Translations under genes and position numbers: made by a program
Notes under the pieces: generated by a model
Database searches by the model: none
Told to the model about the DNA's origin: nothing
Seen by the model: the letters and a program-made list of their open reading frames with translations, nothing else
Origin: a virus
Taxonomy: Duplodnaviria > Heunggongvirae > Uroviricota > Caudoviricetes
Direction: 5' to 3' (one strand)
IMG/VR virus record: IMGVR_UViG_2703718872_000034
DNA length: 37,292 nt
Shown here: in pieces, positions 33,131 to 36,601 of the stretch
How positions within the stretch are numbered: position 1 is the first letter of the stretch
Layout of the letters: each line of letters opens with the position of its first letter

Positions 33131-35173
33131 ATGACGTCCAAATGGGTTCAACTATCATCAATGCCCGGAAACTTTACCGTTAAAGTTTCCGGTGGTACAG
33201 CGGCATTTCTTGAGGCTCCCTTTCCTCCGGTCGAAACAAAAGGAGGAATGACATTTGCTGACTGTCTCATCAGTTTTAATACACGGGATTGCCTGTGGGT
33301 AAGGCCAGTATCCGGTAATCCGAGTGTGGAAATTACCGGAGCAGGTATCGGTGCGGTCATTCCGTTAAGTGCTGATGTTGCCGGTACTGCTGAACCGTCA
33401 GACTGGGATAATGCTGAAACACATACCCGTCCGTCAGGAAATGAAACTGCTTCCAGCTCCCCTTCCTGGTATTACGTGGTGGTTCTTGCTGGTCAGTCAA
33501 ACGGTATGGCTTACGGTGAAGGTCTGCCACTGCCGGAGACATATGATCGCCCCGAACCGCGTATTATGCAGTTAGCCCGTCGCAGTACAGTCACGCCGGG
33601 AGGTAAAGCCTGTCAGTATAACGACATCATTCTGGCCGACCACTGTCTGCATGATGTGCAGGATATGAGTGGAAAAAATCACCCGAAAGCGGATGTGGCT
33701 AAAGGGCAATATGGCACCGTGGGTCAGGGGCTTCACATTGCCAAAAAACTGCTGCCGTTTATTCCGGCAGATGCGGGGATTCTGCTGGTTCCCTGCTGCC
33801 GTGGTGGTTCTGCATTCACGGCGGGTGCTGACGGCACGTACAGTGACAGCGCGGGTGCTTCAGAGAACTCAGCCCGCTGGGGTGTGGATAAGCCGTTGTA
33901 TAAGGATTTAATCAGCCGGACAAAAGCGGCGCTGGCGAAGAACCCGAAAAACCGCCTGCTTGCCGTGGTGTGGATGCAGGGTGAGTTTGATATTGATGCG
34001 AAGCCGACGGAGCATTCCGCGCTGTTTCTGGCGATGGTGGAAAAATTCCGCACAGACCTGGCTGAAAAAGCAGAGCAGTGTATTGGTGGTCGAACTGAAA
34101 CTGTGCCGTGGATTTGTGGCGATACCACGTATTTCTGGAAAAAGAAAAATGAACCGGCATATCAGGCAATCTATGGCGGCTACAAAAATAAAACAGATAA
34201 AAACATTCATTTCGTCCCATTAATGACAGATGAAAATGGCGCGAATGTACCCACCAACAATCCGGCAGAGGACCCGGATATTGAATCCATTGGTTATTAC
34301 GGCTCAACGTGGCGTAACAATGCTGCCACCTGGACATCTGCGGACCGGGCCAGTCATTTCAGTGCCTGGGCGCGCCGTGGGATTGTTTCCGACCGTCTGG
34401 CCACGGCTGTTCTGACTCACGCAGGGCGAACCACAGTAAAAGCCGATGTTCCATCTTCTGAAACTGATGCGCCAACGCCGTCACCTTCAGAAGCTGAAAC
34501 AGTAACCACAACAACACTGCTGTCTTACCGTGCCAGTGAGTCTGAAGGGAAGCTGACCGAACAGGGCTGGAGTGCAGGTGGAGGTAAAGCGGAAATTGTT
34601 GCCGATGAAGGTGCAACTGGTGGAACCGCGATGAAGCTGAGCAAGGAGACGGGTAAAGGATCATGGCATCTGGAGCATGATGCCGGTACTGGCGCTGAAC
34701 TGCTGAAAAATGGCGGCTTAATCAGTTGCCGCTTTAAGGCATCCAGTGAACTGGTGGCAAATCAGTATGTCATTGCACTTTACTGGCCGGTTTCCTCTCT
34801 GCCGCAGGGTGTCACCCTGACAGGGGAAGCAGGGAATAATCTGCTGGCAGCGTTCTACATCCAGACAGACGCAAAAGACCTGAATGTGATGTACCACAAT
34901 GCAAAAGTGGCGACAAATAACCTGAAGCTGGGAACCTTTGGCGCATTTGATAATGAGTGGCATACGCTGGCCTTCCGCTTTGCCGGGAATAACAGCCTTC
35001 AGGTGACGCCGGTTATTGATGGTCAGGACAGTACACCGTTCACGCTGACGCAGTCACCGGTCAGTGCATTTGCGGCGGATAAACTGCATGTGACAGACAT
35101 TACCAAAAATGCGACTTACCCGGTGCTGATTGACAGCATTGTGGTGGAAGTGAAAAAAGCGGTAACAGAATAA
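33131..35173 (+). CDS. SGNH/SASA-type carbohydrate esterase, prophage NanS-like sialate O-acetylesterase candidate
   Basis: 680 aa; VVLAGQSNGMAYGEG motif (GQSN catalytic block of the SASA family); N-terminal non-catalytic region, central esterase region, C-terminal Thr/Ser-rich linker and about 220-aa possible carbohydrate-binding domain. Confidence 0.65.
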   Translation: MTSKWVQLSSMPGNFTVKVSGGTAAFLEAPFPPVETKGGMTFADCLISFNTRDCLWVRPVSGNPSVEITGAGIGAVIPLSADVAGTAEPSDWDNAETHTRPSGNETASSSPSWYYVVVLAGQSNGMAYGEGLPLPETYDRPEPRIMQLARRSTVTPGGKACQYNDIILADHCLHDVQDMSGKNHPKADVAKGQYGTVGQGLHIAKKLLPFIPADAGILLVPCCRGGSAFTAGADGTYSDSAGASENSARWGVDKPLYKDLISRTKAALAKNPKNRLLAVVWMQGEFDIDAKPTEHSALFLAMVEKFRTDLAEKAEQCIGGRTETVPWICGDTTYFWKKKNEPAYQAIYGGYKNKTDKNIHFVPLMTDENGANVPTNNPAEDPDIESIGYYGSTWRNNAATWTSADRASHFSAWARRGIVSDRLATAVLTHAGRTTVKADVPSSETDAPTPSPSEAETVTTTTLLSYRASESEGKLTEQGWSAGGGKAEIVADEGATGGTAMKLSKETGKGSWHLEHDAGTGAELLKNGGLISCRFKASSELVANQYVIALYWPVSSLPQGVTLTGEAGNNLLAAFYIQTDAKDLNVMYHNAKVATNNLKLGTFGAFDNEWHTLAFRFAGNNSLQVTPVIDGQDSTPFTLTQSPVSAFAADKLHVTDITKNATYPVLIDSIVVEVKKAVTE

Positions 35174-35207
35174 AAAAAATCCCGCCGGTCATGATATGGC
35201 TGGCGGG
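35172..35207 (-). terminator. hairpin (CCCGCCGG / CTGGCGGG) adjacent to an A8/T8 tract; terminator-like for minus-strand transcription
   Basis: Imperfect 8-bp GC stem followed on the minus strand by TTTTTTTT; sits right after the esterase stop codon. Confidence 0.45.
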
Positions 35208-35320
35208 AGCTACCTAACCCATAAAGGAAAATAAAAATACTACCGAAGGAGTAGTTATCAGTCACTTCGATGTTTTTACCCGATAACGAATTATGTAGTC
35301 AATATCAAAGGTAAGGTTAT

Positions 35321-35503
35321 ATGACATTCGTTCATACAATGCTGCTTTATTTCTGCGCTGTGGTCAGTGCGTTATATCTGGTGAGCGGCGGTTATAAGGT
35401 CATCAGAAATTATATTCGCCGTAAAATTGATGATGCGGCAGCTGAAAAACTCAGTAAAACAGCACAGGCACCGTCATCCCCAAACGACCCGACCCCGCTC
35501 TGA
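35321..35503 (+). CDS. small putative membrane protein (60 aa)
   Basis: ORF with AAGGTAAGG-like RBS; single hydrophobic helix LLYFCAVVSALYLVSGG. Confidence 0.3.
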   Translation: MTFVHTMLLYFCAVVSALYLVSGGYKVIRNYIRRKIDDAAAEKLSKTAQAPSSPNDPTPL

Positions 35504-35538
35504 TAACGGGGCAATATACCTGCAAAAGGAGAATATTC

Positions 35539-35784
35539 ATGCCAGAGATTAAAGGCACGGTTACTGAAGAGCTTGTCAAACAGGCACTTTATTCTGAAGA
35601 AGTGAACCGCGTGCTGAAGGCGCAGGTTCGCAAGGATTTTGAGGCACAAATTGACGCATATGTTGATGAAGTGCTGGCCCGAATGGTTGGTCGTTCTCCG
35701 GCTGAAAACAGCACGGAAAATGAGCCTCAACCCGTAGAGCAACCAGAGCCGGTCCAGCCCGGAACTGACGGTACTATGATGTAA
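35539..35784 (+). CDS. small acidic hypothetical protein (81 aa)
   Basis: Strong RBS AAAGGAGAA 7 nt before ATG; helical N-terminus and Pro/Glu-rich tail. Confidence 0.4.
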   Translation: MPEIKGTVTEELVKQALYSEEVNRVLKAQVRKDFEAQIDAYVDEVLARMVGRSPAENSTENEPQPVEQPEPVQPGTDGTMM

Positions 35785-35822
35785 CAATACCGACCGGCAG
35801 GTTTCCCTGCCGGGTGAATTTG

Positions 35823-35993
35823 TTAATGCACGTTTTGTGTATTTTCCCTCCGGGGAGAACAGGCAGGACATATCAGCATCCTGAAACAGGAAGCATTTTT
35901 TGGTTTGTATGTCTTGCCATTTTGAGATCGAGAACGGCGATAGATGAGCTGTAAGGGAGTCTTACAGGCAGGGCAAACAGGCTCTTTATCCAT
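35823..35993 (-). CDS. small Cys-rich zinc-finger-like protein (56 aa), divergent from com
   Basis: Minus-strand ORF with AAAAGGAG RBS before ATG at 35993; CPAC...C...CPAC arrangement. Confidence 0.35.
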   Translation of the reverse strand: MDKEPVCPACKTPLQLIYRRSRSQNGKTYKPKNASCFRMLICPACSPRRENTQNVH

Positions 35994-36179
35994 GATAAAG
36001 ATCTCCTTTTTATGCATCTCTGCTTTACAGGAGACCGGGGAATATCATAGGATACGCCACGAGCTCGAAGTAAAGCATTGATGCAAGTTTTTACAGATTG
36101 ACCCAGCATAGTTCCAGCTATGCTGGGTTTCCCTTTTATGTAGTATCCTGTTGATTTGAAACATACTACATATACGCGC

Positions 36180-36357
36180 GATCCTACCTTCACTGGATAA
36201 AAAGTCAATAAAATGATCATTTTATGATCGTTTTCACTCGCTAACTCTTCGTTTTCTTTAAGTAAATAATCACCTCCCTGAATCATTGTTGATGACTTTT
36301 CAATCTATTTGTTGTATCAATTAAACAAATCGAATCGATCGTTTTTGTCGATCGATT
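36180..36357. promoter_or_regulatory. com/mom upstream regulatory region with five GATC (Dam) sites and a perfect 9-bp inverted repeat AATCGATCG-N7-CGATCGATT
   Basis: GATC at 36180, 36215, 36226, 36337, 36350; palindrome at 36333..36357 about 45 bp upstream of com start; Mu mom is known to be controlled by Dam-methylated GATC sites upstream of its promoter. Confidence 0.5.
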
Positions 36358-36400: not shown

Positions 36401-36601
36401 ATGTATCGAAACATACGGTGCCGACACTGCAATAAGCTACTGGCACGGGCCAGTTTCAGTTATCTGGAAGTAAAATGTCCGCGCTGTAAAACCCTCAATC
36501 AAATCACATCTCCGAGCGCCACAGAGCACCCCACATACACAAGGAAATCCTGTCGTGGGGAACAGAAAGCAAGTCACATCCCGAATCATCAGCACGCCTG
36601 A
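36401..36601 (+). CDS. com: Com, zinc-finger translational activator of mom
   Basis: 66 aa from ATG 36401 with AGGAGG RBS; [27 protein letters not shown] closely resembles Mu Com; overlaps mom start. Confidence 0.8.

What the first reader, a model, noticed from the sequence alone, without database searches (positions are those of the whole stretch)
35823..35993. Divergently oriented small Cys-rich ORF upstream of com/mom
A 56-aa minus-strand ORF with a good RBS (AAAAGGAG) encodes CPAC-x25-C-x5-CPAC, a zinc-ribbon-like spacing reminiscent of small phage zinc-finger regulators of the Ogr/Delta or Com type. It sits head-to-head with the com/mom regulatory region and could be a local regulator. 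It is not part of the canonical Mu map as far as I recall.
Basis: inference. Interest (0 to 1): 0.4.

Follow-up and report, generated by a model that had tools for sequence, protein, structure and literature searches.

The report
Small zinc-ribbon gene beside com/mom
The 56-codon reading frame is a real, conserved small zinc-binding protein gene of Mu-like prophages, with its own promoter and a folded RNA leader; genome annotation hides it inside a spurious longer gene, its function is unknown, and it is probably not a dedicated regulator of mom.

Summary
It is a real gene. Within E. coli relatives, 10 of 14-15 variable sites are synonymous in its frame, against 3-5 in the other five frames. 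A 46-48% identical homologue (52-53 aa) sits in the same place, divergent from com, in Salmonella Mu-like prophages. Four cysteines (C7, C10, C42, C45) are conserved; C36 is not.

NCBI's annotation pipeline (PGAP) labels the locus a "frameshifted" pseudogene, or a 154-aa protein in O157. That long frame is an artefact: it breaks at 14 to 154 codons in relatives and covers a promoter and a structured leader.

The gene looks like a self-contained unit: a sigma-70-like promoter, a leader of about 180 nt with compensatory base changes, an AUG in the loop of an 8-bp hairpin, and a hairpin after the stop.

No significant match to Com, Ogr/Delta, Lar or MqsA, and no informative fold match. Sister prophages with near-identical com-mom carry an unrelated 68-aa ORF behind the same promoter and leader, and Mu has no counterpart. 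It is therefore more likely an exchangeable accessory gene than a mom regulator. Interest is moderate.

The parts
35823..35993 (-). Coding sequence of a 56-aa basic (pI 9.8) C4 zinc-ribbon protein. Zinc ligands are C7, C10, C42 and C45. The stop codon TAA is at 35825-35823.
   Evidence: ORF list. Synonymous bias 10/14-15 in this frame only. Salmonella homologue P0036 at the same position. AlphaFold2 pLDDT 80. Charge and pI.
36003..36008 (-). Shine-Dalgarno sequence AAGGAG, 9 nt upstream of the AUG.
   Evidence: Read directly. Invariant in all Zn-ribbon-type relatives.
35983..36001 (-). Start-codon hairpin UCUUUAUC-AUG-GAUAAAGA: an 8-bp stem with the AUG as the 3-nt loop.
   Evidence: Fold energy -8.7 kcal/mol (window), -7.2 (Salmonella, where C>U gives a U.G pair), -5.0 (O157 +G variant). 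100% of cells paired in the alignment. The SD-plus-hairpin segment is 96% identical between E. coli and Salmonella types, against 51% for the rest of the ORF.
36013..36085 (-). Leader helices 3 and 4: a long imperfect hairpin in which GCAUCAAUGCUUUAC pairs with GUAAAGCAGAGAUGC. GGUCUCC in its 3' arm can alternatively pair with the SD region.
   Evidence: MFE and consensus folds. 3 pairs have changes on both sides; 96-97% of cells are paired. 85% identity between E. coli and Salmonella types. Alternative anti-SD pairing.
36100..36129 (.). Leader hairpin 2, a GC-rich stem of 10-13 bp. On the + strand it is followed by UUUCCCUUUUAU (36130-36141) and reads as an intrinsic terminator pointing towards com-mom.
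   Evidence: Terminator scan. At least 8 sequence variants keep the stem through compensatory changes. G.U pairs give no clear strand preference.
36137..36172 (-). Leader helix 1 (UAUGUAGUAU ... AUACUACAUA), close to the predicted 5' end of the mRNA.
   Evidence: 96% paired, one pair changed on both sides.
36181..36208 (-). Sigma-70-type promoter: TTGACT (36208-36203), 16-nt spacer, TAGGAT (36186-36181). A GATC overlaps the -10 hexamer. The predicted transcription start is near 36174 (inferred).
   Evidence: Scan. The orthologous site in Salmonella is TTGACT-16-TAAGAT and in L028 TTGACG-16-TATAAT. Hexamers and spacing are kept while the spacer sequence differs.
35794..35813 (.). Hairpin CCGGCAGG-UUUC-CCUGCCGG between the convergent stops of the DUF826 gene and the Zn-ribbon gene. 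It is the probable 3' end of the unit, although its U tail is weak in this window.
   Evidence: Read directly and conserved in the E. coli type. Salmonella has a canonical terminator at the same place, ACTCCAGCC..GGCTGGAGT plus TTTTCTGTT.
36024..36053 (+). Candidate antisense promoter TTTACA-18-TAGGAT. With the + strand reading of hairpin 2 it would give an RNA of about 80 nt complementary to the leader. Unproven.
   Evidence: Scans find it at the orthologous position in the window and in Salmonella. Fold of 36058-36142(+): -25.8 kcal/mol, z=-3.35. Its conservation is confounded with leader helices 3 and 4.
35873..36286 (-). 137-aa ORF (154 aa in O157 after a +G insertion) that gene callers and PGAP annotate here. 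It is judged not to be a gene.
   Evidence: PGAP labels it 'frameshifted' or 'hypothetical protein'. From the same ATG the frame runs 14, 56, 99, 106, 135, 137 or 154 codons in relatives and is closed in Salmonella. It overlies the promoter and the structured leader.

Best explanation
The ORF is a stand-alone accessory gene (a 'moron') at the right end of an Sp18-type Mu-like prophage.

Shown here:
- It encodes a 56-aa, strongly basic, hydrophilic C4 zinc-ribbon protein under purifying selection.
- It is conserved in position and sequence between E. coli and Salmonella Mu-like prophages.
- The DNA upstream carries a conserved sigma-70-like promoter and a leader of about 180 nt that folds into four helices.
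- The AUG sits in the loop of an 8-bp hairpin.

Inferred:
- Host RNA polymerase transcribes the unit leftward without a phage activator, in the lysogen or early after infection.
- The leader and the start-codon hairpin keep translation low, or make it conditional on something that opens the hairpin.
- The transcript ends at the hairpin just after the stop codon.
- The protein acts by binding nucleic acid or a partner protein through the conserved hairpin motif GKTY(K/R)PK. It works like a small RNA- or DNA-binding zinc ribbon such as Com, but is not a member of that family.
- Because unrelated cargo replaces it behind the same promoter and leader, its role is more likely an exchangeable host- or phage-interaction function (exclusion, anti-defence or similar) than control of mom.
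For: Coding signal. Homologue and synteny. The start at MDKE is conserved while the upstream ATG is not. The O157 +G insertion still leaves an in-frame ATG (MKEP...), also in L024/L025 where no long ORF exists.

Promoter conserved in three versions. Terminator after the stop. Leader fold -70.7 kcal/mol, z=-6.4. In the alignment 95.8% of cells are paired, and 8 pairs have changes on both sides against 4.0+-1.3 in shuffles and 0-4 in slid controls. The conservation peak lies on the leader and translation start, not on the ORF or com.

Cargo swap. Absence from Mu. Basic and non-hydrophobic. Present in 233 of 5426 complete E. coli genomes, and the listed members of the Salmonella cluster were seen on more than 1000 contigs.

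Against: The covariation rests on about four independent lineages. Some copies are damaged: C7Y in L023/L098/L103 and a frameshift in L029, so the gene is dispensable. Constant adjacency to com could still reflect a functional link.
Confidence: 0.55

Rival explanations
1. It is a local regulator of the com-mom operon. In this reading a basic zinc ribbon made from the divergent promoter binds the shared regulatory DNA or the com-mom mRNA.
For: It is always found head-to-head with com in E. coli and Salmonella, whether the modification gene behind com is mom or a C5 methylase. It is basic like Com, pI 9.8 against 9.9. Mu itself has a divergent promoter, momP2, at mom (PMC3378877). The apical loop of helix 4 reads CC-UAU-GAU, one base off the Com motif CC(N)2-3GAG (PMC6483171).
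Against: An unrelated acidic 68-aa ORF replaces it in prophages with near-identical com, mom and intergenic region. It is absent from Mu. It shows no homology to Com or Ogr. There is no exact Com motif next to the start-codon hairpin (read directly). Damaged copies coexist with intact com-mom.
Confidence: 0.12
2. It is a type-I-toxin-antitoxin-like, antisense-RNA-controlled module. In this reading an RNA of about 80 nt from the + strand (promoter 36024-36053, terminator 36100-36141) pairs with the leader of the Zn-ribbon mRNA, which is otherwise kept translationally inert by its structure. The small protein would be harmful when made in excess.
For: Both promoter-like sites recur at orthologous positions in Salmonella. 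The hairpin stem co-varies and carries a U-rich tail on the + strand. The leader is long and very stable and the AUG is buried. The hairpin module is tandemly duplicated in four lineages. RalR of the Rac prophage is a precedent for a small non-membrane type I toxin (from my own knowledge).
Against: The protein is hydrophilic and has no membrane segment. All elements of the antisense unit lie inside leader helices, so their conservation is explained without it. G.U pairs do not favour the + strand. The U tract is interrupted. Nothing tested here bears on toxicity.
Confidence: 0.12
3. It is the C-terminal remnant of a frameshifted gene of about 154 aa, as PGAP annotates, so the 56-aa ORF has no independent meaning.
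For: PGAP calls an intact 154-aa protein in O157 (WP_115801860.1) and labels this allele 'frameshifted'. phrog_26524 matches the long ORF.
Against: The one-base difference is a +G found only in the O157-type lineage, whereas most lineages and Salmonella lack it. The upstream frame is cut at 14, 56, 99 or 106 codons in relatives that keep the Zn ORF intact, and it is closed in Salmonella. Upstream substitutions are not biased towards synonymous changes (read). That DNA carries a promoter and co-varying RNA helices. The only homologues beyond this locus match the 56-aa part alone.
Confidence: 0.04
4. It is a chance ORF in non-coding DNA between the DUF826 gene and the mom control region.
For: It is short, lies in an accessory region and has no family assignment.
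Against: Frame-specific synonymous bias, dN/dS of 0-0.4 within lineages, and a 48%-identical homologue with all four zinc ligands and the start conserved.
Confidence: 0.03

Closest known systems
Com of phage Mu (Pfam PF10122), translational activator of mom
   Same: A small (about 60 aa), very basic C4 zinc-ribbon protein encoded next to mom. The regulated gene's start codon sits in a hairpin, as the mom start does in its translation-inhibition structure.
   Different: No profile match. The spacing between cysteine pairs is 31 residues, against about 17. It lies on the opposite strand with its own promoter. There is no CC(N)2-3GAG loop next to its start hairpin. It is present only in Sp18-type and Salmonella Mu-like prophages, not in Mu.
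Ogr/Delta late activators of P2/P4 (Pfam PF04606)
   Same: Small phage zinc-finger proteins.
   Different: No profile match. The cysteine spacing differs (C-x2-C-x22-C-x4-C, from my own knowledge). There is no link to late promoters here; Mu-type phages use C.
Phage morons (autonomous promoter-gene-terminator units in prophages)
   Same: It has its own sigma-70-like promoter and a downstream hairpin or terminator. It is inserted between conserved modules, present in some relatives and absent or replaced in others.
   Different: The unusually long, conserved and structured leader is shared by different cargo genes. Expression from the prophage has not been shown.
Type I toxin-antitoxin loci (for example zorO-orzO, tisB-istR, ralR-ralA)
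   Same: A small ORF, a long structured 5' UTR that hides the translation start, a possible antisense RNA, a prophage location, and tandem duplication of the RNA module.
   Different: The protein is hydrophilic and zinc-binding, not a membrane peptide. The antisense RNA and any toxicity are untested.
YgiT/MqsA-type zinc finger (TIGR03831)
   Same: CPxC ... CxxC with about 30 residues between the cysteine pairs and beta strands in between.
   Different: The score is below the cut-off (14.2 against 20.2 bits, and only for the Salmonella homologue). hhalign against MqsA gave 3.8%. There is no HTH domain and no mqsR-like neighbour.

Membership tests
Com (Zn_ribbon_Com, PF10122) | Match to the family profile | tested here: not met
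   No PF10122 hit at E<=1 for the ORF, while the window's Com scores 3.2e-12. hhalign against the window's Com: 18% probability over 17 columns.
Com (Zn_ribbon_Com, PF10122) | Encoded upstream of, and overlapping, the modification gene on the same strand | tested here: not met
   The ORF is on the opposite strand, 407 bp from the com start.
Com (Zn_ribbon_Com, PF10122) | Binds an RNA hairpin loop carrying CC(N)2-3GAG next to a translation-inhibiting stem | not testable with these tools
   Motif taken from PMC6483171. The window's com-mom junction has CC-ACA-GAG at 36519-36526. The ORF's leader has only a near match, CC-UAU-GAU.
Ogr/Delta (PF04606) | Match to the family profile and C-x2-C-x22-C-x4-C spacing | tested here: not met
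   No Pfam hit. The observed spacing is C-x2-C-x31-C-x2-C.
Lar/RalR restriction alleviation (TIGR03655) | Match to the family profile | tested here: not met
   NCBIfam gave no hit at E<=10.
YgiT/MqsA zinc finger (TIGR03831) | Match to the family profile above its cut-off | tested here: not met
   14.2 bits against a cut-off of 20.2, for P0036 only. No hit for the window protein. hhalign against MqsA: 3.8%.
Zinc ribbon fold (generic C4) | Two CxxC knuckles flanking beta hairpins, with all four Cys conserved | tested here: met
   C7, C10, C42 and C45 are invariant between the E. coli and Salmonella types. AlphaFold2 pLDDT 80 with four strands. Zinc binding itself was not tested.
Moron (autonomous prophage accessory gene) | Own promoter upstream and terminator downstream | tested here: met
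   Consensus scans at orthologous positions in the window and in Salmonella. The window's own terminator has a weak U tail.
Moron (autonomous prophage accessory gene) | Present, absent or replaced among otherwise related phages | tested here: met
   Absent from Mu. Replaced by a 68-aa ORF in L063, L069, L071 and L121.
Moron (autonomous prophage accessory gene) | Expressed from the repressed prophage | not testable with these tools
   No transcript data were available.
Type I toxin-antitoxin | Structured mRNA leader that hides the translation start | tested here: met
Type I toxin-antitoxin | Antisense or partly complementary small RNA | tested here: inconclusive
   A + strand promoter-like site and a terminator-like hairpin recur in Salmonella, but both lie inside conserved leader helices.
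Type I toxin-antitoxin | Small hydrophobic or otherwise toxic protein | tested here: not met
   GRAVY -0.88 and no hydrophobic 19-residue window. Toxicity cannot be tested here.

The most novel reading that the evidence does not exclude
The promoter plus the structured leader next to com-mom is a conserved expression port into which Mu-like prophages of E. coli and Salmonella plug different small effector genes: two zinc-ribbon types and a 68-aa helical protein. In this reading the port is gated at the RNA level, by the start-codon hairpin, a competing anti-SD pairing, and possibly an antisense RNA of about 80 nt ending at the co-varying hairpin. The zinc-ribbon protein would be a new small anti-defence, exclusion or toxin-like effector. 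The leader would be a cis-regulatory RNA family not yet in Rfam.
Probability: 0.18. Interest if true: 0.65.

Novelty: new member of a known kind. Interest (0 to 1): 0.4.

Why it matters
It corrects an annotation repeated across complete E. coli genomes: the locus occurs in 233 of 5426 of them, including O157:H7 strains. There, a promoter and leader are read as a 135-154-aa protein or as a "frameshifted" pseudogene, and the real 56-aa gene is missed. It adds an uncharacterised small zinc-ribbon family, restricted to Mu-like prophages of E. coli and Salmonella, to the set of candidates for phage-host interaction functions next to the anti-restriction gene mom. It also points to a conserved structured leader that has no Rfam match and can be tested directly with reporter fusions.

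Tried and rejected
- hhalign against MqsA, RalR and the window's Com gave 3.8%, 1.3% and 18%.
- The weak Trm112p Pfam hit (E=0.0067, below cut-off) was dismissed as cysteine-knuckle noise. In addition, the partner modification enzyme differs between relatives (Mom or a C5 methylase).
- Rfam found no family for the leader on either strand.
- Genome representatives of 185,579 species gave no relative by protein pattern, and the 29 hits to a 17-mer from the leader are all in unrelated, non-enterobacterial genomes. Further leader and start-region patterns found no new IMG/VR loci.
- A search for a second copy or a trans target of the leader inside the window found 6 exact 11-mers, against 4 expected by chance.
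- The strand of action of hairpin 2 could not be decided: some variants have G.U pairs on the minus strand, others on the plus strand.
- A 17-codon upstream ORF in helices 3 and 4 (36025-36078, minus strand) stays open in both types, but it has no SD and mostly non-synonymous changes, so I treat it as a by-product of the structure.
- A literature search for an sRNA in Sp18 found only an unrelated sRNA, HnrS.

Full report
**What the window is.** The DNA around the finding is 97.7-99.9% identical to Mu-like prophages of E. coli. Two copies are inserted in Stx phage genomes. The locus is present in 233 of 5426 complete E. coli genomes, many of them O157:H7. The annotated order in relatives is: gin-like recombinase, a 680-aa SASA/DUF6645 esterase, DUF1378, DUF826, then a minus-strand "hypothetical protein", then com and mom.

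**The observation.** The ORF list shows the minus-strand ORF 35823..36017. AAGGAG lies 9 nt upstream, and the pattern is CPAC-x25-C-x5-CPAC (C7, C10, C36, C42, C45). The ORF is divergent from com, whose ATG is at 36401.

**The annotation conflict.** PGAP annotates this place as a 154-aa hypothetical protein in O157 (WP_115801860.1). In the allele carried by this window it is called a "frameshifted" pseudogene. The alignment shows one extra G in O157, ATGGATGAAAGAG against ATGGAT-AAAGAG. That insertion fuses an upstream 137-aa frame (35873..36286) to the zinc-ribbon frame. So there were two readings to separate: either a long gene is broken here, or the small ORF is the gene and the long frame is accidental.

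**Which reading is right.**
- The long frame is not conserved. Starting from the same ATG it runs 14, 56, 99, 106, 135, 137 or 154 codons in different relatives. The zinc-ribbon ORF stays intact in most of them.
- In the Salmonella type the long frame is closed by a stop.
- In L024 and L025 the +G insertion occurs without any long ORF, yet it creates an in-frame ATG (MKEP...).
- Within E. coli relatives, 10 of 14 variable sites in 35823-35993 are synonymous in the zinc-ribbon frame (P=1.2e-4). With metagenome variants added the count is 10 of 15, against 3-5 in each of the other five frames.
- An exhaustive HMMER search found a 53-aa Salmonella protein, MDKEARLCPSC...CPKCSP, 46-48% identical to the window protein. 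The listed members of its cluster were seen on more than 1000 contigs.
- That Salmonella gene lies in Mu-like prophages at the same position, about 390 bp from com and divergent from it, whether com is followed by mom or by a C5 methylase.
- Between the two types synonymous sites are saturated (pS 0.78) while pN is 0.32. Within the Salmonella type dN/dS is 0.19-0.42.
- C7, C10, C42, C45, the first four residues MDKE and the motif GKTY(K/R)PK are conserved. C36 is not.
- The upstream ATG at 36017 is replaced by a stop context in L026 and L028, so translation starts at 35993.

I conclude that the 56-aa gene is real and that the 137/154-aa ORF, and phrog_26524 built on it, are artefacts.

**What lies upstream.** The DNA that the long frame covers is the best-conserved part of the neighbourhood. 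Between the E. coli and Salmonella types the SD-plus-start segment is 96% identical and 36010-36082 is 85% identical. For comparison, com is 68% identical and the rest of the ORF 51%. Three features stand out.

- *Promoter.* A sigma-70-like promoter, TTGACT-16-TAGGAT (36208-36181, minus strand), is found by the scan. It recurs at the orthologous place as TTGACT-16-TAAGAT in Salmonella and as TTGACG-16-TATAAT in L028. The spacer sequences differ between them.
- *Leader structure.* From there to the AUG the RNA folds very stably: -70.7 kcal/mol, z=-6.4. The consensus fold of seven distinct sequences has four helices plus a start-codon hairpin. On that structure 95.8% of cells are paired. Eight pairs have changes on both sides, against 4.0+-1.3 in shuffles (1 of 500 reach 8) and 0-4 when partners are slid. 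Hairpin 2 (36100-36129) alone has at least eight sequence versions that keep the stem. The sample covers only about four independent lineages, so this is supportive rather than conclusive.
- *Start codon.* The AUG is the 3-nt loop of an 8-bp hairpin, UCUUUAUC-AUG-GAUAAAGA (35983-36001). Its energy is -8.7 kcal/mol. In Salmonella it is -7.2, where a C>U change gives a U.G pair. In the O157 +G allele it weakens to -5.0. GGUCUCC in helix 3/4 can alternatively pair with the SD region.

After the stop there is a GC hairpin (35794-35813). In Salmonella the same position holds a canonical intrinsic terminator. Rfam has no family matching either strand.

**Strand ambiguity.** On the + strand, hairpin 2 is followed by UUUCCCUUUUAU and scores as the best terminator in the region. 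A + strand promoter-like site, TTTACA-18-TAGGAT (36024-36053), recurs in Salmonella. Together they would give an antisense RNA of about 80 nt (fold -25.8 kcal/mol, z=-3.35). The hairpin could also stop read-through transcription into the toxic mom operon. All these elements lie inside the leader helices, and G.U pairs do not favour either strand. I therefore keep this as an open rival or add-on, not a finding.

**What the protein is.**
- It is basic (pI 9.8, 11 K+R against 3 D+E) and hydrophilic.
- AlphaFold2 gives a four-stranded zinc-ribbon model with pLDDT 80, from a shallow alignment of three sequences.
- The window's true Com hits PF10122 at 3.2e-12, whereas this protein does not hit it at all. 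hhalign against Com, MqsA and RalR gives 18%, 3.8% and 1.3%.
- The only repeatable weak hits are phrog_9584, of unknown function (E about 0.01 for both types), and the YgiT finger, below its cut-off.

It is therefore a new small family of the generic zinc-ribbon kind. I found it only in E. coli and Salmonella Mu-like prophages.

**Is it a mom regulator?** In Mu, gin ends 94 bp before com, so there is no counterpart there. Mu does have a divergent promoter, momP2 (PMC3378877).

More telling is a group of relatives: L063/L067/L074, L069, L071, L121 and L097. They have near-identical com, mom and intergenic DNA, and the same promoter and leader helices 1-4. Behind that leader sits an unrelated acidic 68-aa ORF, and in L063 a convergent small ORF faces it. 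In those loci the zinc-ribbon-specific SD and start hairpin are missing.

The Com recognition motif CC(N)2-3GAG (PMC6483171) is present at the window's com-mom junction (36519-36526). It is absent next to the zinc-ribbon start. Damaged copies, C7Y and a frameshift, occur beside intact com.

The locus therefore behaves as a cargo-exchange site with its own expression signals. This favours an accessory ("moron") role and weakens, without excluding, a dedicated regulatory role.

**Most likely mechanism.**
- Shown: a real gene, zinc-ribbon sequence features, a conserved promoter-like site, a structured leader, a buried AUG, a downstream hairpin, and cargo replacement.
- Inferred: leftward transcription by host RNA polymerase; translation throttled or conditional because of the start hairpin and the competing anti-SD pairing; a protein acting through nucleic-acid or partner binding; an accessory function.

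Rivals and the experiments that would separate them are listed in the other fields.

**Verdict.** It is a new member of a known kind, with a modestly interesting conserved leader and a clear annotation error.

Noticed in passing
window 33131-35784 (+): A 680-aa SASA/DUF6645 esterase, a DUF1378 gene and a DUF826 gene lie between the gin-like recombinase and com-mom. From my own knowledge this trio resembles the nanS-p cassette of the late regions of Stx/lambdoid phages. It looks like an imported module in a Mu-like prophage.
   Followed up: partly
window 35873-36286 (-); L003 4124-4588: PGAP, gene callers and PHROGs (phrog_26524) treat a promoter-plus-leader region as a 135-154-aa protein or as a 'frameshifted' pseudogene. 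The frame length varies from 14 to 154 codons among relatives.
   Followed up: yes
window 36335-36357: A palindrome CGATCG-N7-CGATCG with two Dam sites lies about 45-65 bp upstream of the com ATG and is conserved in the Salmonella type. It is a candidate Dam/OxyR control site of the mom promoter. More GATC sites sit just upstream of, and inside, the -10 of the leftward promoter (36214-36232 and 36180-36183).
   Followed up: no
window 36519-36560 (+): The com-mom junction carries CC-ACA-GAG, which fits the published Com motif CC(N)2-3GAG. It is followed by a stem CCCCAC...GUGGGG that includes the mom GUG start at 36555. This is the same arrangement as the Mu translation-inhibition structure.
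   Followed up: partly
L006 165-1217, L013 165-1217, L014 4398-5450: In some E. coli and Salmonella relatives the gene behind com is a C5 DNA methylase (PF00145) instead of mom. Com-type control therefore seems to be reused for a different modification enzyme.
   Followed up: no
L063 8039-8444; also L069, L071, L121, L097: An alternative cargo sits behind the same promoter and leader: a 68-aa acidic ORF (MDKLTTD...). In L063 it is faced by a convergent, overlapping ORF of 66-78 aa (not checked in the other loci). Neither has a family assignment. L097 has the start codon mutated to ATA.
   Followed up: partly
L026, L028, L069, L071 (leader region; alignment): The module 'ACTACATAAAGGG - hairpin 2 - GCATCAATGCTTTAC' is tandemly duplicated in four contigs, two of the E. 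coli type and two of the Salmonella type. This gives two successive hairpins in the leader, or two terminators on the other strand.
   Followed up: partly
L014 6362-7274 (+): In Salmonella three more small genes (100, 81 and 122 aa) follow the zinc-ribbon gene's terminator on the same strand. The last matches phrog_5954 (5e-17, unknown function). L026 has a paralogue of the 81-aa gene upstream of the leader in place of the promoter.
   Followed up: partly
window 36025-36078 (-): A 17-codon upstream ORF (MLYFELVAYPMIFPGLL) lies inside leader helices 3 and 4. It stays open, with the same stop, in the E. coli and Salmonella types, but it has no Shine-Dalgarno sequence and its changes are mostly non-synonymous.
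   Followed up: partly
L023, L098, L103 (C7Y); L029 (frameshift): A sub-lineage of E. coli prophages carries Cys7 changed to Tyr in the first zinc knuckle. One Salmonella-type contig has a 1-base deletion in the ORF. The gene is evidently dispensable in some lysogens.
   Followed up: partly
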